From contig CALNYG010000013.1 in the NCBI GenBank assembly GCA_942490825.1, positions 189,359-253,358 on the forward strand: 64,000 bases of DNA, in the 5' to 3' direction. The position numbers and the translations under genes are program-made. The DNA is from Candidatus Moraniibacteriota bacterium. Lineage in GTDB: Bacteria > Patescibacteriota > Minisyncoccia > Moranbacterales > GCA-2747515. Of this stretch, positions 4,471-33,399 are shown piece by piece (positions within the stretch are counted from its first letter, which is position 1; every line of letters begins with the position of its first letter). Under the pieces are notes generated by a model that had not been told where the DNA came from, searched no databases, and saw only the letters and a program-made list of their open reading frames with translations.

Positions 4471-4566
4471 AACCTAAAGTATAGATTCTGGATAAATTAT
4501 TTTCTATATATAAAAAGCGATAAATCGACGTTTCTACAAAAGAAAATATATTTTCCGGAATGACAT
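4471..4566 (+). repeat. B-family MITE/REP-like unit B1
   Basis: aacctaaagtatagattctggataaattattttctat ... aagaaaatatattttccggaatgacat. Confidence 0.75.
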
Positions 4567-4582
4567 TTACAAGAGGTGATGG

Positions 4583-4602
4583 AAAGCCCGTGCGGCGAGC
4601 AC
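4583..4602 (+). repeat. GC-rich 20-mer, copy 1
   Basis: aaagcccgtgcggcgagcac followed by tttttt. Confidence 0.9.
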
Positions 4603-4641
4603 TTTTTTAGAGACCTTAAAATTTTAAAAAAACTCATAAAA

Positions 4642-15127: not shown

Positions 15128-15360
15128 AGTATAGACATCACACCATGAAACCGCACTTTTTATAATTACATATCATTTCGAAAGATATTTTTTATTTAAA
15201 AGCTTGCATATTGCACGGCAGAAAGGTTAATTTATCTGGAATTTCAATAAGTTTTTCTGATATTTAACAAGATTCCGGATAAACAATTTTTCCGCTCCGC
15301 TACAAAATTATTTTCCGGAATGACATGGTTTGTGTGGTTTGTTAATGTGATGTCTATAGT
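15128..15360. repeat. B-family-containing element with roughly 13-27-nt terminal inverted repeats
   Basis: tatagacatcacacc at the left end and gtgatgtctata at the right end. The interior carries attccggataaa ... ttttccggaatgacat. Confidence 0.6.
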
Positions 15361-20379: not shown

Positions 20380-23013
20380 ATGAACAAGAAAATCAGAAAT
20401 AAGTTTATTTTAGTAGTACTTTTCGCAGTATTAATGGGAGGAATCGCAACACCAAGAATACCGTATTTACCAGAAAAAGCACAGAGCTATTTAGATAAGT
20501 TCAAAATAAATTTAGGATTAGATTTACAAGGAGGACTACATCTCGAATACGAAATGGATTTATCACAAGTTCCTGATGACAAAAAGAAAGACGCAATCGA
20601 TGCAGTACAAGCAGTCGTAGAAAGGCGAGTAAATGCTTACGGAGTCGGAGAACCAGTTGTTCAACACGCAAAAAGAGGTGAACAAAATTTTCTTATCGTA
20701 GAATTTCCTGGTGCAGAAGATGTTGAAGATGTAAAAAATGTAATTGATAAAACACCATTTTTACAGTTTAGAGAAGAAAAAAACGAAGAAGAATTAAAGA
20801 CTGACGAGGAGATTTTTGTGTCTGTTAATGAGCAGGTCAGAACAGCGGCACAAGAGACATTAGATAAAATAAACAATGGAGAAAATTTTGATGATATTTA
20901 TAATGAACAAAGTCAAGGATTTGGAATTACAGATGAAGATTTAACATTTACAGAAAAAGGCTTATTACCAGCTGAAATAGAAAATGTAGTTTTTGCTGAT
21001 GAAATGGCAGACAATTCAGTCCATAGAGATTTAATTGAGACAGATCAAGGATTTTTTATTGTCAAAAAGTTAGAGACACAAGGTGAAGGCGATGAAAAAA
21101 AGGTGAAAATTAAACCTTTAAGCTTTGGTAAACAATCACCTGAAATGTATGATGAATTTAAATATAAAGCTACTGATTTAGATGGAAAACATTTAGAACG
21201 AGCCGATGTTAGTTTTTCTGGTGGGGGAGTTGGGATAGGATCTCCGAGTGTTAGTTTGCAATTTGATGATGAAGGAACAAAACTTTTTGCGGAGATTACT
21301 AAAAGAAACTTAAATAAAACAGTTGCTATTTTTCTTAAATATGGCGATGATCCAGAAGAATTAGTCAGTGCACCAGTTGTAAATGATGAAATTACAACAG
21401 GTCAGGCAGTGATTAGCGGAAACTTTACAATAGAAGAGGCAAAAGAATTAACAAAGAGGCTGAATGAAGGAGCGTTGCCAATTCCGATTAAATTAGTTTC
21501 GCAACAAAGTATCGGAGCATCTTTAGGGTTAGAATCTTTGGCGATGGGATTGAAAGCAGGAATGATTGGATTGATTTTTACCATGATTTACATGATTCTT
21601 TATTATCGTGTGTTTGGAATTGTGGCATCAGTAGCTTTGATAATCTATGCTTCAACTATTGTTTCGATTTTTAAAATTTCTGGAACAATGCCTCAGGGGA
21701 TGGCAATTACATTAACTTTAGCGGGAATTGCGGGACTTATTCTTTCAATTGGTATGGCGGTTGATGCTAACGTTTTGATTTTTGAAAGAATTAAGGAAGA
21801 ATTAAAAAAAGGTAAATCTTTAAAATCTGCAGTAAATGAAGGGTTTGAAAGAGCTTGGTCATCTATTCGTGATGGTAATTATTCTACAATTATTACATCT
21901 TTTATTTTAATGACGGTTGGAGCTGGTTTTGTAAAAGGTTTTGCATTGATTTTGATTATTGGTGTTTTGATTTCGATGTTTACAGCAATTGTTTTAGTAC
22001 GAATTATTGCTCAGTTTATTTCTAGAGACTGGCTTGAAAATAATACTTGGTTAATTTTTGGATTTAGGAAAAGGGCTAAAGTTGAAAATACTGAAGAAAA
22101 GAAATTTTTGCAAATTCTCGACAAGAGAAAATTTACTTATATTTTTTCAGTAATATTAATTGGAATAAGTATTTTTTCACTTTCAAATTGGGGGTTGAAG
22201 TTAGGAATTGATTTTGTGGGTGGAACTTTGGCTGAGTTTAAAATTTCAGAAGGAATTGAGGCACCAGATACTGAAAAAATTTGCCAATCGTTAGGTGATG
22301 GTGAATGTAATGAAAGTTTTACTTCGCAAAAGAGTGATGATAACCATATTATTATTCGATATAAACAATCAAGTGAAGAATTTAATCAAAAAGTTTTGAC
22401 AGCAGTAAAAGAGATTGACCCTAATGCTGAACAGCTACGAACTGACTTTATCGGTGCAACAATTTCTGATCAGTTAAAAAATGGAGCAGTTAAGGCTATT
22501 ATACTATCTGTGGTGGCTATCTTACTTTTCATTGCTTGGTCTTTTCGAAAAGTTTCTTATCCTGTTTCTTCTTGGAATTATGGTTTGGGAGCGGTATTGG
22601 CGTTGGCTCATGATGTTATTATTGTGTTGGGAGCGTTTGCATTTTTGGGTTATTTTTATGATATTGAAGTCGGAGTTCCTTTTATCGCAGCATTGCTTAC
22701 GATTTTAGGTTATTCAGTTAATGATACGATTGTGGTTTATGATCGTGTTCGAGAGAATGTTATTCGTACTCGAGAGACTGGTGATTTTGAGAAATTGTTG
22801 AATCGTTCACTAAATGAGTCTTTGGCGAGATCTTTAAATACTTCACTTACTGTTGTGGTTGTGTTGATTTCTGTTATTTTGTTTGGCGGTGAATCTTTGC
22901 AGAGTTTTGCGATTGCGATGTTAGTTGGTGTGGTAGCAGGAACTTATTCGTCTATGTTTGTAGCAACGGCTTTTATTGCTAGTGTTTTTAGATATAAGAA
23001 AAATAAGCAGTAA
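20380..23013 (+). CDS. secDF: protein translocase subunit SecDF fusion with an extra periplasmic insert
   Basis: SecD motifs LGLDLQGG and SIGASLG with 6 TM helices. The SecF part (GIDFVGG) adds 6 more TM helices in one 877-aa ORF. Confidence 0.9.
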   Translation: MNKKIRNKFILVVLFAVLMGGIATPRIPYLPEKAQSYLDKFKINLGLDLQGGLHLEYEMDLSQVPDDKKKDAIDAVQAVVERRVNAYGVGEPVVQHAKRGEQNFLIVEFPGAEDVEDVKNVIDKTPFLQFREEKNEEELKTDEEIFVSVNEQVRTAAQETLDKINNGENFDDIYNEQSQGFGITDEDLTFTEKGLLPAEIENVVFADEMADNSVHRDLIETDQGFFIVKKLETQGEGDEKKVKIKPLSFGKQSPEMYDEFKYKATDLDGKHLERADVSFSGGGVGIGSPSVSLQFDDEGTKLFAEITKRNLNKTVAIFLKYGDDPEELVSAPVVNDEITTGQAVISGNFTIEEAKELTKRLNEGALPIPIKLVSQQSIGASLGLESLAMGLKAGMIGLIFTMIYMILYYRVFGIVASVALIIYASTIVSIFKISGTMPQGMAITLTLAGIAGLILSIGMAVDANVLIFERIKEELKKGKSLKSAVNEGFERAWSSIRDGNYSTIITSFILMTVGAGFVKGFALILIIGVLISMFTAIVLVRIIAQFISRDWLENNTWLIFGFRKRAKVENTEEKKFLQILDKRKFTYIFSVILIGISIFSLSNWGLKLGIDFVGGTLAEFKISEGIEAPDTEKICQSLGDGECNESFTSQKSDDNHIIIRYKQSSEEFNQKVLTAVKEIDPNAEQLRTDFIGATISDQLKNGAVKAIILSVVAILLFIAWSFRKVSYPVSSWNYGLGAVLALAHDVIIVLGAFAFLGYFYDIEVGVPFIAALLTILGYSVNDTIVVYDRVRENVIRTRETGDFEKLLNRSLNESLARSLNTSLTVVVVLISVILFGGESLQSFAIAMLVGVVAGTYSSMFVATAFIASVFRYKKNKQ

Positions 23014-23028
23014 AAAGCTGTAAAGTTT

Positions 23029-23088
23029 CCTGTCATTCTGAACGCAATAAATTTATCGCAGATAAATTTATGAAGTGAAGAATCCCCC
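23029..23088 (+). repeat. A-family palindromic unit A1
   Basis: cctgtcattctgaacgca + hairpin ataaatttatc-gca-gataaatttat + gaagtgaagaatccccc. Confidence 0.9.
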
Positions 23089-23114
23089 AAAGAGAATCAC
23101 AAAACCAAAAATTT

Positions 23115-23399
23115 ATGGAAAAAACCTATTACGTTTATATTGCAACAAATAAATGGAATACAGTTTTATACACGGGAGCAACGAGTAATTTAGAAAATAG
23201 AATTTATCAACATAAAAATAAAATAATAAAAGGTTTTACAAGTAAACATAATATTTATAAATTAGTTTATTATGAAACCTTTTCAAATCCTGATGATGCG
23301 ATATTAGCTGAAAAGAAAATAAAAGGTTGGACGAGAAAAAAGAAAATTGATCTCATTGAAAAAGAAAATTCAAAATGGGAGGATTTGAGTGTAATTTAA
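23115..23399 (+). CDS. GIY-YIG (URI-domain) nuclease family protein, 94 aa
   Basis: YYVYIATNK...VLYTGATSNLENRIYQHK...YYE core. Confidence 0.85.
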   Translation: MEKTYYVYIATNKWNTVLYTGATSNLENRIYQHKNKIIKGFTSKHNIYKLVYYETFSNPDDAILAEKKIKGWTRKKKIDLIEKENSKWEDLSVI

Positions 23400-23419
23400 A
23401 AGGTTCGTGTTTCTTTTTT

Positions 23420-23479
23420 GGGGGATTCTTCACTTCTTTATTTTTTTAACAAAAAAATAAATCCGTTCAGAATGACGGG
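23420..23479 (-). repeat. A-family unit A2 (inverted)
   Basis: gggggattcttcacttc + hairpin tttattttttt-aac-aaaaaaataaa + tccgttcagaatgacggg. Confidence 0.9.
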
Positions 23480-23534
23480 TAAATTTGAATGATTTATAAT
23501 AATTTAAAATTAATTAACAATTAAATTAAAAAAT

Positions 23535-25112: not shown

Positions 25113-25158
25113 ATGTAATTTTAGGATAGTTGGGTTTGTGAATTTTGTGTTTTTCTGT

Positions 25159-25218
25159 GGGGGATTCTTCACTTCATAAATTTATCTGCGATAAATTTAT
25201 TACGTTCAGAATGACAGG
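25159..25218 (-). repeat. A-family unit A3 (inverted; 59/60 identical to the reverse complement of A1)
   Basis: gggggattcttcacttcataaatttatctgcgataaatttattacgttcagaatgacagg. Confidence 0.9.
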
Positions 25219-25281: not shown

Positions 25282-25301
25282 AAAGCCTGTGCGGCGAGCA
25301 C
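25282..25301 (+). repeat. GC-rich 20-mer, copy 2
   Basis: aaagcctgtgcggcgagcac followed by a T-rich run. Confidence 0.9.
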
Positions 25302-25356
25302 TTTATTTTTTTTAAAAATTAAAATATTAGTTTTAAGTAACTTTTGTAGAGAACAA

Positions 25357-27949: not shown

Positions 27950-28022
27950 GCCTTCCTAGCTCAATTGGTAGAGCAACTGTTTTGTAAACAGTAGGTTATC
28001 GGTTCAAGTCCGTTGGAAGGCT
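27950..28022 (+). tRNA. tRNA-Thr (anticodon UGU)
   Basis: Hand-folded cloverleaf. Acceptor gccttcc/ggaaggc; anticodon arm actgt-tttgtaa-acagt; T-loop ttcaagt. Confidence 0.85.
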
Positions 28023-28048
28023 CATTTATTTTTTTAGAAAAGTAAATT

Positions 28049-28381
28049 ATGGAATTTAAAAAAGTGGCTGAAAGAGCAATGGAGATTAGAGAGGGATATG
28101 CAGATGTTCAAAAAATTGAAAGTGGTAATAGGTGGACGGGAGCACAAATGGCACAGGGGTTTGTTGGAGATGTCGGGGATTTGATGAAGATAATTATGGC
28201 TAAGGATGGTTTAAGGAATGTTGAGGGTGATATTGATGATAAGTTAAAACATGAGTTAGCGGATTGTTTATGGAGCGTTTTGGTTTTAGCGAATGAATAT
28301 GAAATTGATCTGGAGAAGGAATTTTTTAGTACAATGGATAGTTTAGAAAAGAGAATAGAAAAGGTTAAGTTGAAAAAGTAA
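28049..28381 (+). CDS. MazG-like nucleotide pyrophosphohydrolase domain protein
   Basis: All-alpha 110-aa protein with FVGDVGDLMK and HELADCLWSVLVLANEYEIDLE. Confidence 0.75.
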   Translation: MEFKKVAERAMEIREGYADVQKIESGNRWTGAQMAQGFVGDVGDLMKIIMAKDGLRNVEGDIDDKLKHELADCLWSVLVLANEYEIDLEKEFFSTMDSLEKRIEKVKLKK

Positions 28382-28386
28382 TATTA

Positions 28387-28469
28387 GGGCGAATGGCAGA
28401 GTGGTCAAATGCATCTGACTGTAAATCAGACGACTTCGGTCTACGGGGGTTCAAATCCCTCTTCGCCCA
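28387..28469 (+). tRNA. tRNA-Tyr (anticodon GUA), long variable arm
   Basis: Acceptor gggcgaa/ttcgccc; anticodon arm tctga-ctgtaaa-tcaga; long variable arm; T-loop ttcaaat. Confidence 0.85.
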
Positions 28470-28489
28470 CATTAATTGGTTTTGTTCTT

Positions 28490-28562
28490 GCCCACGTAGC
28501 TCAGCTGGTAGAGCATTTCCATGGTAAGGAAAAGGTCAGCAGTTCAAATCTGCTCGTGGGCT
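28490..28562 (+). tRNA. tRNA-Thr (anticodon GGU)
   Basis: Acceptor gcccacg/cgtgggc; anticodon arm tttcc-atggtaa-ggaaa; T arm agcag-ttcaaat-ctgct. Confidence 0.85.
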
Positions 28563-28609
28563 CATTTCTTTTATGGAGTTGAATTTTTGAAAATTAGTGT
28601 GTGAAAAAT

Positions 28610-28680
28610 GCGGGTGTCGTATAGTGGCAGTATAGGAGTCTCCAAAACTTCTGGCGGGAGTTCGATTCTCTCCACCCGTG
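28610..28680 (+). tRNA. tRNA-Trp (anticodon CCA)
   Basis: Acceptor gcgggtg/cacccgt (one G-U pair); anticodon arm ggagt-ctccaaa-acttc; T-loop ttcgatt. Confidence 0.8.
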
Positions 28681-29520: not shown

Positions 29521-29558
29521 TTCGTTCCTCAGATTCTCGCCTTCGCGGGAATGAGACA
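29521..29558 (-). repeat. degenerate relative of the gtcattc...gaatc repeat families
   Basis: The reverse complement reads tgtctcattcccgcgaaggcgagaatctgaggaacgaa. Confidence 0.35.
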
Positions 29559-30927: not shown

Positions 30928-30987
30928 CTTGTTATTCTGAACGAAATAATTTTTATTTTATAAAAATTATGCAGTGAAGAATCTCAG
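30928..30987 (+). repeat. A-family unit A4 (diverged flanks)
   Basis: cttgttattctgaacgaa + hairpin ataatttttat-ttt-ataaaaattat + gcagtgaagaatctcag. Confidence 0.8.
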
Positions 30988-31034
30988 TAAGTTTTTCTGG
31001 CGCTTTGGTAACTTTGAGTTTTTGTGATTCTCTG

Positions 31035-31094
31035 CGGGGATTCTTCACTTCATGAATTTATCTACGATAAATTCATTACGTTCAGAATGACAAT
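31035..31094 (-). repeat. A-family unit A5 (inverted)
   Basis: cggggattcttcacttc + hairpin atgaatttatc-tac-gataaattcat + tacgttcagaatgacaat. Confidence 0.85.
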
Positions 31095-31141: not shown

Positions 31142-31156
31142 AGCCTGTGGCGAGCA
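31142..31156 (+). repeat. GC-rich motif, copy 3 (shortened)
   Basis: agcctgtggcgagca followed by tttttt. Confidence 0.6.
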
Positions 31157-31229
31157 TTTTTTGATTTTTCAGTTGTTTAAATGATTAAAAGCGTGTTAGA
31201 TTTAGAATAGCTAAATAATCGAGTATTTT

Positions 31230-33230: not shown

Positions 33231-33302
33231 GTCATTCCGGAAGACATAATTTGTTCACGAACGGAGTGAGTGATTACAAATTAGTCTATCCGGAATCTAC
33301 AC
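33231..33302 (-). repeat. B-family-related unit B3a
   Basis: gtcattccggaagacataatttg ... ctatccggaatctacac. Confidence 0.6.
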
Positions 33303-33316
33303 TTTAAGATTTGAGA

Positions 33317-33399
33317 AAACCTAGAGTATAGATTCCGGATAAATTATTTTCTATTTCATCGCTACGCTCTGAAAGAAAATATATTTTCCAGAATGACAT
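33317..33399 (+). repeat. B-family unit B3b
   Basis: aacctagagtatagattccggataaattattttctat ... aaagaaaatatattttccagaatgacat. The flanks match B1 and the core differs. Confidence 0.8.

What the first reader, a model, noticed from the sequence alone, without database searches (positions are those of the whole stretch)
23029..23479. GIY-YIG nuclease gene sits exactly between two inverted 60-nt palindromic units (filled site)
Unit A1 (23029-23088) and inverted unit A2 (23420-23479) bracket a 331-nt interval. Of that interval, 285 nt is the 94-aa GIY-YIG ORF.

The same pair of units occurs at 30928-31094 separated by only 47 nt and with no ORF. In both loci the segment next to one arm is conserved:
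- aaagagaatcacaaaacc after A1
- its reverse complement, gtttttgtgattctctgc, before A5

This filled-versus-empty contrast within one window is what is expected if the nuclease gene, or the whole unit, is mobile. I cannot say from memory whether this specific association has been formally described.
Basis: partly seen in the sequence, partly recalled or inferred. Interest (0 to 1): 0.6.

Follow-up and report, generated by a model that had tools for sequence, protein, structure and literature searches.

The report
Ssn nuclease gene with hairpin repeats
This is a Candidatus Moranbacteria copy of the Ssn system described in 2025: a 94-residue GIY-YIG single-strand DNA nuclease gene flanked by its own hairpin repeats, so it is real and tidy but already explained.

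Summary
Five copies of a 53-nt hairpin unit (GTCATTCTGAACG-N29-GTGAAGAATC) lie in the window where none is expected by chance. A 94-aa GIY-YIG ORF (23115-23399) sits between two copies that face inward.

The association has been formally described. The protein is 46% identical to the Neisseria SsnA orthologue, with the same length and catalytic residues. SsnA is the founding member of the Ssn family of site-specific single-stranded-DNA nucleases (Chenal et al. 2025, PMC11893778), whose genes are typically flanked by their target hairpins (NTS/SRM). In 80 relatives from many phyla, 52 carry inward-facing hairpins on both sides.

The within-window "filled versus empty" contrast is not a true site pair. 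The 30928-31094 doublet is a recurrent composite element with its own conserved spacer.

A real filled/empty contrast does exist between genomes. Three contigs from two sister lineages have a 32-nt SecDF-to-next-gene spacer where this window carries the roughly 480-bp cassette.

Two local features stand out. The hairpins have a tandem G·A base and an 11-bp covarying inner helix, and they escape the published SRM search string. Mobility remains unproven.

Verdict: new member of a known kind, modest interest.

The parts
23014..23495 (.). Whole cassette (5' flank, U1, leader, ssn, tail, U2, flank). It is present here and in L206 and absent from the orthologous SecDF|next-gene spacer of L202/L203/L204. 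The right boundary is uncertain by about 8 nt because the DNA is AT-rich.
23020..23031 (+). Conserved 5' flank of U1 (TAAAGTTTCCT). This is the inferred zone of Ssn nicking on the top strand, a few nt 5' of the GTC tag.
   Evidence: Flank conservation. The cut position is inferred from Neisseria SsnA in PMC11893778.
23032..23084 (+). U1 core. GTC tag, 5-bp ATTCT/AGAAT helix, tandem G·A, AC/GT, 3x3 internal loop, 11-bp variable helix with a 3-nt loop, then the closing C.
23085..23114 (+). Tail 'ext1' of U1, which is also the ssn 5' leader (CCCCAAAGAGAATCACAAAACCAAAAATTT) and ends at the ATG.
   Evidence: Similar leaders occur in L001, L205 and L206.
23115..23399 (+). ssn gene: a 94-aa single-domain GIY-YIG protein of the Ssn family. 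Y8, Y19 and E66 align with SsnA Y6, Y17 and E64.
23400..23423 (-). Tail 'ext1' of U2 (CCCCCAAAAAAGAAACACGAACCTT on the minus strand). It abuts the ssn stop codon.
23424..23476 (-). U2 core, inverted with respect to U1. It has the same outer helix and a different but fully paired inner helix.
25139..25215 (-). U3, a solo unit (core 25163-25215) with an ext1 tail (25139-25162), 3' of a glycosyltransferase gene. An orthologous unit is present in L202 (9822-9874) and absent in L205.
30931..30983 (+). U4 core, the left arm of the doublet. It has GTT instead of GTC and lacks the ext1 tail.
30984..31008 (+). Doublet spacer ('ext2', TCAGTAAGTTTTTCTGGCGCTTTGG). It is conserved with the L202 doublet and has no significant similarity to the ssn ORF.
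31009..31091 (-). U5 (core 31039-31091) with an ext1 tail (31009-31038). The tail matches the full ssn leader up to the position of the start codon.
33231..33397 (.). Related 'B' family doublet (GTCATTCYGGAA...TATCCGGAATC), arms 33231-33297 (+) and 33331-33397 (-). Further B copies lie at 4484-4564 (-) and 15271-15324 (-).
29527..29558 (-). Single NTS-like unit TGTCTCATTCCCGCGAAGGCGAGAATCTGAGG. My manual comparison gives 22 of 24 matches to the Neisseria NTS core.
   Evidence: NTS consensus from PMC11893778.

Best explanation
The ORF encodes an Ssn-family enzyme, a monomeric single-domain GIY-YIG nuclease. The A units are its cognate Ssn-related hairpin motifs, which belong to the CGTC/TGTC-tagged REP superfamily.

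**Mechanism, by analogy with the characterised Neisseria and Wolbachia enzymes.**
- When DNA is single-stranded (incoming transforming DNA, replication or repair intermediates), the strand reading 5'-GTC...C-3' folds into the hairpin.
- Ssn binds the base of the helix and the C that follows it, then nicks a few nucleotides 5' of the GTC tag.
- The complementary strand, double-stranded DNA and RNA are not substrates.
- In this window that places the nicks in the conserved TAAATTTnCC flank. For the ssn cassette that means about 23020-23030 on the top strand and about 23478-23490 on the bottom strand, just outside the cassette on each strand.

**Local features.**
- The inner 11-bp helix varies in sequence but stays paired. 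It probably serves only to stabilise hairpin extrusion.
- The gene with its two inward-facing units is a compact cassette of about 480 bp that is present or absent between related genomes. It is acquired or lost as a block, but rarely.
- The ORF-less doublets are dispersed composite copies of the same repeat, not vacated insertion sites.

**Status of each step.**
- Shown here: sequence anatomy, homology, gene-repeat association, covariation, presence/absence.
- Taken from the literature: ssDNA-specific binding and cleavage.
- Inferred: that this protein cuts these units, where it cuts, and any role in limiting recombination of incoming DNA.
For: - **Repeat count.** 5 units against 0 expected.
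- **Protein domain.** Pfam GIY-YIG E = 8e-17, 94 aa.
- **Homology.** BLASTP to the N. gonorrhoeae SsnA orthologue gives 46% identity over 85 aa with no gaps, E = 6e-27. That protein is also 94 aa and is surrounded by 9 NTS repeats in 3.3 kb. Y8, Y19 and E66 align with the Y6, Y17 and E64 mutated in the paper (PMC11893778).
- **Distinct from UPF0213.** The solved UPF0213 proteins are much more distant (E = 8.5e-5 and 0.11), and the better-matching one (1ZG2) aligns with a one-residue gap between the two motif tyrosines.
- **Association in relatives.** In 80 loci from CPR, cyanobacteria, delta-proteobacteria, Firmicutes, Bacteroidota and others, an inward hairpin unit lies within 200 nt upstream in 57, downstream in 67 and on both sides in 52. 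I estimate about 3 by chance from the shuffle rate.
- **Shared framework.** The units share the GTCATT...AATC(C) framework of the NTS.
- **Structure.** The inner helix is 100% paired, and 6 of its 11 pairs show double changes. 0 of 500 shuffles reach the observed score.
- **Dispersal.** 64 long units from metagenomes carry 61 different inserts, and 45% of them fold better than z = -2.
- **Alternatives excluded.** No Rfam family matches. There is no terminator signal, and promoter-like sites are no more frequent than in shuffles.
- **Location.** By my comparison of the unit coordinates with the ORF list, all A, B and C units are intergenic.
Against: - No biochemistry exists for this protein or for any Patescibacteria Ssn.
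- The published degenerate SRM search string finds 0 hits in the window and hits only 1 of 80 related loci. The units therefore lie outside the operational definition used in the paper.
- The unit core is 53 nt, above the 20-50 nt quoted there.
- Three repeat families (A, B, C) but only one ssn gene occur in the 64 kb. Which family this enzyme serves is therefore not settled.
- A palindromic helix pairs equally well in RNA, so an RNA-level role is not excluded by the covariation.
- Only 3 of 80 metagenomic loci with an A unit also hold an ssn gene within the fetched stretch. This is expected for a dispersed repeat but gives no support for cognate pairing.
Confidence: 0.8

Rival explanations
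1. The cassette is an autonomous, IS-like mobile element of about 480 bp in which Ssn itself is the mobilising enzyme. The solo units and doublets would then be its non-autonomous (MITE/REPIN-like) derivatives. This overlaps with the best explanation but adds self-mobilisation.
For: - Terminal inverted repeats of about 85-95 nt fit exactly around the ORF.
- The orthologous site is empty in two sister lineages (three contigs) and occupied in this window and in L206.
- A 77% identical gene sits in a different context, corA|cysS, in another Moranbacteria genome.
- Protein identity of 53-70% across distant phyla suggests horizontal spread.
- The doublet recurs at non-orthologous sites.
- U5 keeps the whole ssn leader.
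- The ssn ORF is 24.6% GC against 34-36% in its neighbours.
- The authors of PMC11893778 raise the same idea.
Against: - No target-site duplication or sharp boundary is visible.
- The two arms would be nicked on opposite strands, which is not how IS200/IS605 excises.
- Ssn has no known strand-transfer activity.
- One identical homologue is in the same glyQ|glyS context in all 8 contigs shown, out of 24 read, so there is no sign of recent movement.
- The SecDF junction is a general hot spot that also holds unrelated cargo without repeats (L216). Recombination or transformation could therefore explain the presence/absence.
Confidence: 0.25
2. The ORF is a classical GIY-YIG homing endonuclease that cuts the 'empty' double-stranded unit pair at 30928-31094 and copies itself into it.
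For: - GIY-YIG domain.
- Two pairs of inverted units, one with the ORF and one without.
Against: - The protein is 94 aa with no DNA-binding domain.
- It belongs to the Ssn family, whose characterised members show no activity on dsDNA (PMC11893778).
- The doublet has a conserved spacer of its own that recurs elsewhere.
- The inner boundaries differ: ext2 on the doublet's left arm, ext1 on both cassette arms.
- The flanks of the two loci are unrelated.
Confidence: 0.03
3. The units act mainly at the RNA level, as REP-like 3'-UTR stabilisers or other structured RNA. Their proximity to the nuclease gene would then be incidental or regulatory.
For: - A stable, covarying hairpin.
- The units lie in intergenic DNA just 3' of genes (U1 after secDF, U3 after a glycosyltransferase gene).
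- A terminator-like motif follows some units.
Against: - The association with ssn in 57-67 of 80 loci across phyla is far above chance.
- The conserved asymmetric GTC tag and closing C match the determinants of Ssn cleavage and binding.
- No Rfam family matches.
- No T-run terminators are found.
- Units occur in both orientations relative to neighbouring genes.
Confidence: 0.1

Closest known systems
Ssn (SsnA) nucleases with NTS/SRM repeats (Chenal et al., Nat Commun 2025, PMC11893778)
   Same: - A 94-aa single-domain GIY-YIG protein, 46% identical to the Neisseria orthologue with aligned catalytic residues.
- The gene is flanked by multi-copy intergenic hairpin repeats built on the GTCATT...AATC-C framework.
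- The repeat-gene-repeat architecture has already been noted as IS-like.
   Different: - The host is a Candidatus Moranbacteria (Patescibacteria).
- The repeat has a tandem G·A in the basal helix, a 31-nt structured insert where the NTS has a 3-nt loop, and conserved 5' and 3' flanks.
- It is not found by the published SRM search string.
- Both flanking units face inward, like clean terminal inverted repeats. In the Neisseria locus the nearest downstream NTS is in the same orientation as the gene.
CGTC-tagged REPs (Di Nocera et al., BMC Genomics 2013, PMC3733652)
   Same: - An unpaired CGTC/TGTC tag.
- The stem begins with A-T and T-A pairs.
- A short C-rich tail.
- Mostly intergenic, frequent inverted dimers, and several families per genome.
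   Different: - The described families have 8-9 bp stems and 4-5 nt loops, and were reported to lack any dedicated enzyme.
- Here the stem is interrupted and extended, and a dedicated GIY-YIG gene sits between two copies.
RAYT / REP / REPIN systems (REPtrons)
   Same: - An enzyme gene flanked by inverted copies of the hairpin repeat that it recognises as ssDNA.
- Dispersed singlets and inverted doublets.
   Different: - The enzyme there is an HUH Y1 transposase-like protein and the tag is GTAG.
- There is no sequence or fold relationship to GIY-YIG.
IS200/IS605 TnpA elements
   Same: - Recognition of imperfect hairpins in single-stranded DNA near the element ends.
- A very small element.
   Different: - Both ends are cut on the same strand by a Y1 HUH enzyme that also rejoins DNA.
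- Here the two units lie on opposite strands, and no joining activity is known.
GIY-YIG homing endonucleases (I-TevI, Seg proteins)
   Same: - The GIY-YIG catalytic domain.
- A presence/absence polymorphism of the gene.
   Different: - Those are two-domain proteins of over 200 aa that cut dsDNA at intron or gene insertion sites.
- The NCBIfam group I intron endonuclease model scores only 15.9 bits against a cut-off of 56.
UPF0213 / YhbQ-type small GIY-YIG proteins (PDB 1ZG2, 1YWL)
   Same: Small single-domain GIY-YIG proteins of about 95-105 aa.
   Different: - Only a distant match (E = 8.5e-5 and 0.11).
- The alignment to 1ZG2 has a one-residue gap between the two motif tyrosines.
- No known repeat association.

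Membership tests
Ssn nuclease family (cd10448-like) | Single GIY-YIG domain, about 94 aa, no extra DNA-binding domain | tested here: met
   The ORF is 94 aa. Pfam PF01541 covers residues 5-78, and no other domain is found.
Ssn nuclease family (cd10448-like) | Sequence homology to characterised SsnA (the paper's criterion is tblastn E < 1e-10) | tested here: met
   46% identity over 85 ungapped residues, E = 6e-27 pairwise. tblastn gives E = 5e-12 in a 7.3-Gb database. The subject is the 94-aa N. gonorrhoeae orthologue embedded in NTS repeats. The comparison is to N. gonorrhoeae, not to the N. meningitidis protein actually assayed.
Ssn nuclease family (cd10448-like) | Catalytic tyrosines and metal-binding glutamate (Y6, Y17, E64 in SsnA) | tested here: met
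   Y8, Y19 and E66 align with them. Y8 and Y19 are invariant and E66 is at least 90% conserved in 36 homologues.
Ssn nuclease family (cd10448-like) | Assignment to CDD model cd10448 | not testable with these tools
   No CDD library is available. NCBIfam has no specific model.
Ssn nuclease family (cd10448-like) | Gene flanked by its hairpin repeat on one or both sides | tested here: met
   U1 ends 31 nt before the ATG and U2 starts 25 nt after the stop. The same holds in 52 of 80 relatives.
Ssn nuclease family (cd10448-like) | Strand-specific binding and cleavage of ssDNA only, 5' of the repeat | not testable with these tools
   Needs purified protein and oligonucleotides.
Ssn-related motif (SRM) as searched in PMC11893778 | Match to HGTCWYN(0-2)YYVSBRHN(0-5)WNVSBRGN(0-2)RNCYNB | tested here: not met
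   0 hits in the window, even with the loop relaxed to 60 nt, and 1 of 80 related loci. The same script finds 9 NTS in the Neisseria locus. This string is a search heuristic, not a functional definition.
Ssn-related motif (SRM) as searched in PMC11893778 | Oriented hairpin with GTC immediately 5' and C immediately 3' of the palindrome; multi-copy; extragenic | tested here: met
   GTC (GTT in U4), then ATTCT...AGAAT, then C in all five copies. All copies are intergenic.
Ssn-related motif (SRM) as searched in PMC11893778 | Size 20-50 nt | tested here: not met
   The core is 53 nt, and about 85-95 nt with the conserved flanks. Close relatives have the same core with a 3-nt loop, 25 nt in all (L207).
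CGTC-tagged REP superfamily | Unpaired CGTC/TGTC tag, stem starting A-T then T-A, short C-rich tail, dimers common | tested here: met
   The tag is TGTC in U1, U3 and U5, CGTC in U2 and TGTT in U4, and the tail is CCCC. There are two inverted dimers plus the ssn-containing pair.
CGTC-tagged REP superfamily | Stem 8-9 bp, loop 4-5 nt | tested here: not met
   The stem is 5 bp, then G·A/G·A, then 2 bp, then an internal loop, then an 11-bp helix.
REPtron (RAYT flanked by REPs) | Flanked gene encodes an HUH Y1 transposase-like protein | tested here: not met
   The gene is GIY-YIG.
GIY-YIG homing endonuclease | Two-domain protein with a C-terminal DNA-binding module | tested here: not met
   94 aa with a single domain. 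TIGR01453 scores 15.9 bits against a cut-off of 56.

The most novel reading that the evidence does not exclude
The unit-ssn-unit cassette is a self-mobilising element of about 480 bp, which would be among the smallest autonomous DNA elements known. It would use a GIY-YIG single-strand nuclease instead of an HUH transposase. The solo units and conserved doublets would be its REPIN-like passengers. This would answer the question left open in 2013 of which enzyme spreads CGTC-tagged REPs.
Probability: 0.25. Interest if true: 0.75.

Novelty: new member of a known kind. Interest (0 to 1): 0.3.

Why it matters
The main value is that a striking-looking locus is explained. It is an Ssn nuclease with its target hairpins, a system published in 2025.

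Three smaller points may interest specialists.
1. The published SRM search string misses essentially the whole clade to which this protein belongs (1 of 80 loci). That clade spans CPR, cyanobacteria, delta-proteobacteria and other phyla. Its hairpins have a conserved tandem G·A at the base and tolerate inserts from 3 to over 40 nt. Published prevalence figures are therefore probably underestimates, and the recognition rules are broader than the Neisseria model suggests.
2. Sister Moranbacteria genomes provide natural occupied and empty sites for the cassette. This is the kind of material needed to test whether Ssn cassettes move.
3. Ssn enzymes are being developed as ssDNA tools. An enzyme whose site accepts an arbitrary inner hairpin could be a useful scaffold.

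Tried and rejected
- **Rfam.** Searches at gathering and at permissive thresholds found only four tRNAs and chance-level hits over the locus.
- **Source contig.** Exact look-up of the window's protein failed twice. The organism was inferred from SecDF and Ssn homologues instead.
- **Solved structures and supplements.** The PDB holds no solved Ssn, only distant UPF0213 proteins. The paper's supplements are not held.
- **Hairpin detectors.** My first two generic detectors were too noisy, giving about 22 and 12 hits in shuffles. I tightened them.
- **Remnant of ssn in the doublet.** tblastn of 36 homologues against the window found only the one gene and no remnant inside the U4-U5 doublet. Local alignment of the doublet spacers to the cassette interior found nothing beyond the ext1 tail.
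- **Regulatory signals.** No terminator-like site was found, and promoter-like sites are at background.
- **Recent transposition.** An identical protein seen on many contigs turned out to sit in one context.
- **Target-site duplication.** I looked for one at the cassette ends. None is visible, and the AT-rich spacer blurs the right boundary.
- **Further literature.** A search for later work on Ssn mobility or on CPR Ssn found none.
Full report
**1. The observation**

The sequence is as described. The pattern ATTCTGAACG-N(10-40)-GTGAAGAAT occurs five times in the 64-kb window and never in 100 dinucleotide-preserving shuffles. All five matches have a 29-nt gap.
- U1 23035-23083 (+)
- U2 23425-23473 (-)
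- U3 25164-25212 (-)
- U4 30934-30982 (+)
- U5 31040-31088 (-)

The only sizeable ORF between U1 and U2 is 23115-23399 (+), 94 aa. It matches Pfam GIY-YIG at E = 8e-17 over residues 5-78.

**2. Anatomy of the repeat**

Aligning the five copies with their flanks shows that the repeat is longer than 60 nt. From 5' to 3' it consists of:
- a conserved 5' flank (TAAATTTnCC);
- an unpaired GTC tag (GTT in U4);
- the hairpin and a closing C;
- in U1, U2, U3 and U5, a 3' tail CCCCCA-AGAGAAWCACAAAA, which I call ext1.

It matches its counterpart at 15 of 18 positions and is also present at the solo copy U3 and on the far side of the gene (U2). It therefore does not mark an insertion boundary.

Each copy folds the same way: ATTCT/AGAAT (5 bp), a tandem G·A, AC/GT (2 bp), a 3x3 internal loop, and an 11-bp AT-rich helix with a 3-nt loop.

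I counted pairs on nine copies of identical length, five from the window and four from two related genomes. The outer helix is invariant. The inner helix is 100% paired, and six of its eleven pairs change on both sides. No shuffle out of 500 reaches the observed covariation, and slid registers drop to 40-57% paired. The inner helix is therefore kept as structure, not as sequence.

No Rfam family matches. No terminator-like site was found, and promoter-like sites are at background.

**3. What it is**

A literature search turned up Chenal et al., Nat Commun 2025 (PMC11893778). That paper reports the following.
- The 94-aa single-domain GIY-YIG protein SsnA of Neisseria meningitidis binds a hairpin repeat, the NTS (CGTCATTCCCGCGMAVGCGGGAATCYRG).
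- Binding occurs only when the DNA is single-stranded and only on one strand. The enzyme cuts a few nucleotides 5' of the repeat.
- Homologues from other Neisseria and from Wolbachia do the same on their own repeats.
- The genes of this "Ssn" family are typically flanked by such repeats. With the paper's degenerate SRM motif, 71% have at least one nearby and 42% have them on both sides.
- The repeat-gene-repeat layout looks like an insertion sequence.

The window's unit shares the GTCATT...AATC-C framework.

I tested membership directly. A tblastn search of the plasmid collection happened to hit two N. gonorrhoeae chromosomes filed as plasmids. The hit is a 94-aa ORF embedded in NTS repeats, with Y6, Y17 and E64 as in the paper. 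BLASTP against the window's protein gives 46% identity over 85 ungapped residues, E = 6e-27. Y8, Y19 and E66 align with the three residues the authors mutated. Solved UPF0213 proteins are far more distant, and the alignment to the closer one (1ZG2) has a one-residue gap between the two motif tyrosines.

**4. Is the association general in this protein's clade?**

A scan of one genome per species returned 574 or more relatives. I examined the best 80, which are 53-70% identical and come from CPR groups, cyanobacteria, delta-proteobacteria, Firmicutes, Bacteroidota, Elusimicrobia and others.

I used a detector for "GTCWYY, a helix of at least 5 bp starting at the W, then C". An inward-facing unit lies within 200 nt upstream in 57 loci, downstream in 67 and on both sides in 52. 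From the shuffle rate I estimate about three by chance.

The units read GTCATTCTGAGC...GCGAAGAATC, GTCATTGCGAGC...GAAGCAATC or GTCATCCTGAGC...GAAGGATC, with inner parts from 3 nt to over 40 nt. A tandem G·A at the base is common. A strict pattern for it hits 37 of 80 loci and 0 shuffled controls. Several homologues even read through into the downstream unit, giving ...RDSSLRSE tails.

My implementation of the published degenerate SRM string finds nine NTS in the 3.3-kb Neisseria locus. It finds nothing in the window, even with the loop relaxed to 60 nt, and hits only 1 of the 80 loci. The units here are thus SRM-like in architecture and context but lie outside the published search definition.

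They also fit the older description of "CGTC-tagged REPs". Those have the tag often changed to TGTC, a stem starting A-T then T-A, a C-rich tail and frequent inverted dimers, and they include the Neisseria dRS3. In 2013 no dedicated enzyme could be found for them (PMC3733652). The Ssn paper does not mention that classification.

**5. Distribution of the long A unit**

- In the 80 loci I could read, 64 matches are single long units with 61 different inserts.
- The inserts fold better than shuffles. The median z is -1.5, and 45% fall below -2.
- Only 3 loci hold an ssn gene within the fetched stretch. This is as expected for a dispersed repeat with one or a few enzyme genes per genome.
- A 77% identical Ssn in another Moranbacteria genome is flanked upstream by the same core with just a 3-nt loop, GTCATTCTGAAC-ACA-GTGAAGAATC. 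The 31-nt structured insert is therefore a lineage-specific expansion of the loop.

**6. Filled versus empty**

The within-window contrast does not hold.
- U4 lacks ext1 and carries a different tail (TCAGTAAGTTTTTCTG...).
- The complete doublet, spacer included, aligns with a doublet at a non-orthologous site (GT4|secDF) in a related genome, L202 4511-4702.
- tblastn finds no nuclease remnant between the arms.
- Local alignment of the spacers to the cassette interior finds only U5's ext1, which extends over the whole ssn leader up to the start-codon position.

The doublet is thus a recurrent composite repeat, REPIN/BIME-like. An origin by internal deletion of a cassette cannot be excluded, but it is not a vacated or naive target site.

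A genuine contrast exists between genomes. SecDF homologues identify the organism as a Candidatus Moranbacteria and give syntenic contigs. At the secDF|next-gene junction:

| Locus | SecDF identity | State of the junction |
|---|---|---|
| This window | - | 521-nt intergenic region; about 480 nt of it (23014 to about 23495) is the flank-U1-leader-ssn-tail-U2-flank cassette |
| L206 | not measured (Ssn in the same 90% cluster) | Same cassette at the same site |
| L204 | 86% | 32-nt spacer, no unit, no ssn |
| L202/L203 | 81% | 32-nt spacer, no unit, no ssn |
| L205 | 84% | One SRM in U1's position and orientation, with an ext1-like leader, followed by an unrelated 147-aa Cys-rich membrane ORF |
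| L216 | 66% | Three unrelated ORFs, no repeats |

No target-site duplication is visible, and the AT-rich spacer blurs the right boundary by about 8 nt. Solo units are polymorphic too. U3's site is occupied in L202 and empty in L205.

Against recent movement, one homologue found on many contigs lies between glyQ and glyS in all 8 places shown, out of 24 read. The ssn ORF is more AT-rich (24.6% GC) than its neighbours (34-36%).

**7. Mechanism**

Best supported (confidence about 0.8): this is an Ssn-SRM pair.
- The enzyme recognises the base of the hairpin plus the GTC tag and the closing C on single-stranded DNA.
- It nicks in the conserved 5' flank. For the cassette, that places one nick just outside each end, on opposite strands.
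- The inner helix only stabilises the fold.
- U4 (GTT) may be bound but poorly cut, because in Neisseria the three nucleotides 5' of the palindrome govern cleavage.

Homology, architecture, association, covariation and presence/absence are shown here. The chemistry is taken from the literature. Its application to this protein, the cut position and any biological role are inferred. One possible role is limiting recombination of incoming single-stranded DNA. That is plausible because, from my own knowledge rather than anything tested here, Patescibacteria take up DNA through competence machinery.

The main rival addition is that the cassette mobilises itself (about 0.25). The terminal inverted repeats, the empty sites, the different contexts and the cross-phylum similarity support it. 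The opposite-strand geometry, the absence of duplications, the lack of a known joining activity and the hot-spot nature of the site weaken it. A classical homing endonuclease (0.03) and a purely RNA-level element (0.1) are disfavoured.

**8. Verdict**

The system is already described, and this is a new member from Patescibacteria with a structurally expanded repeat that escapes the published search string. Interest is modest (0.3).

Noticed in passing
window 4484-4564 (-), 15271-15324 (-), 33231-33297 (+), 33331-33397 (-): A second hairpin-repeat family ('B'), GTCATTCYGGAA-[variable hairpin]-TATCCRGAATC. All copies are intergenic and one pair forms an inverted doublet. No second ssn gene lies in the window, so its enzyme is either the same Ssn or a paralogue elsewhere in the genome.
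   Followed up: partly
window 29527-29558 (-): A single unit, TGTCTCATTCCCGCGAAGGCGAGAATCTGAGG, that matches the Neisseria NTS core at 22 of 24 positions. Its GTC tag is displaced by 2 nt.
   Followed up: no
window 4588-4605, 25287-25304, about 31143-31160; L202 about 9668 and 9925: A recurrent motif, CYGTGCGGCGAGCACTTT followed by a T-run (small hairpin GTGC/GCAC). It lies 20-70 nt beyond the GTC end of minus-strand units and upstream of plus-strand genes. It may be a lineage-specific terminator, which would place the units inside 3' UTRs.
   Followed up: partly
L205 2773-3348; L216 5629-6757; window 23014-23534: The secDF|next-gene junction is a hot spot for variable content in this Moranbacteria group. 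It is empty in two lineages. It holds an ssn cassette in two contigs (this window and L206), one SRM plus a 147-aa Cys-rich membrane protein in another, and three unrelated ORFs in a more distant one.
   Followed up: partly
L001, L006, L009, L016; L207 2962-3321: In several loci (mostly CPR) the upstream and downstream units of ssn have different core types: GTCATTCTGA... upstream and GTCATCCTGA... downstream. This is a consistent heterodimer arrangement. In the window both are the ATTCT type.
   Followed up: no
window 22944-23090 (-); homologues P0044, P0069, P0112, P0118, P0115: Spurious or extended reading frames run through the repeats, such as the 48-aa ORF over U1 (...DSSLH...FRMT...) and C-terminal ...RDSSLRSE tails on homologues. 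These peptide strings are translation artefacts of the repeat.
   Followed up: no
L208-L215 (P0033 context): In a Portnoybacteria lineage the ssn gene sits between glyQ and glyS, inside what is normally a tight gene pair. It is stable across all 8 contigs shown, which come from several samples.
   Followed up: no
L081 (NZ_CP119140.1) and NZ_CP119142.1: Two complete N. gonorrhoeae chromosomes (about 2.17 Mb) are filed as plasmids in the plasmid collection. This was useful here, but it is a database labelling error.
   Followed up: no
window 27950-28680: A cluster of four tRNA genes (Rfam scores 54-69 bits), unrelated to the finding.
   Followed up: no
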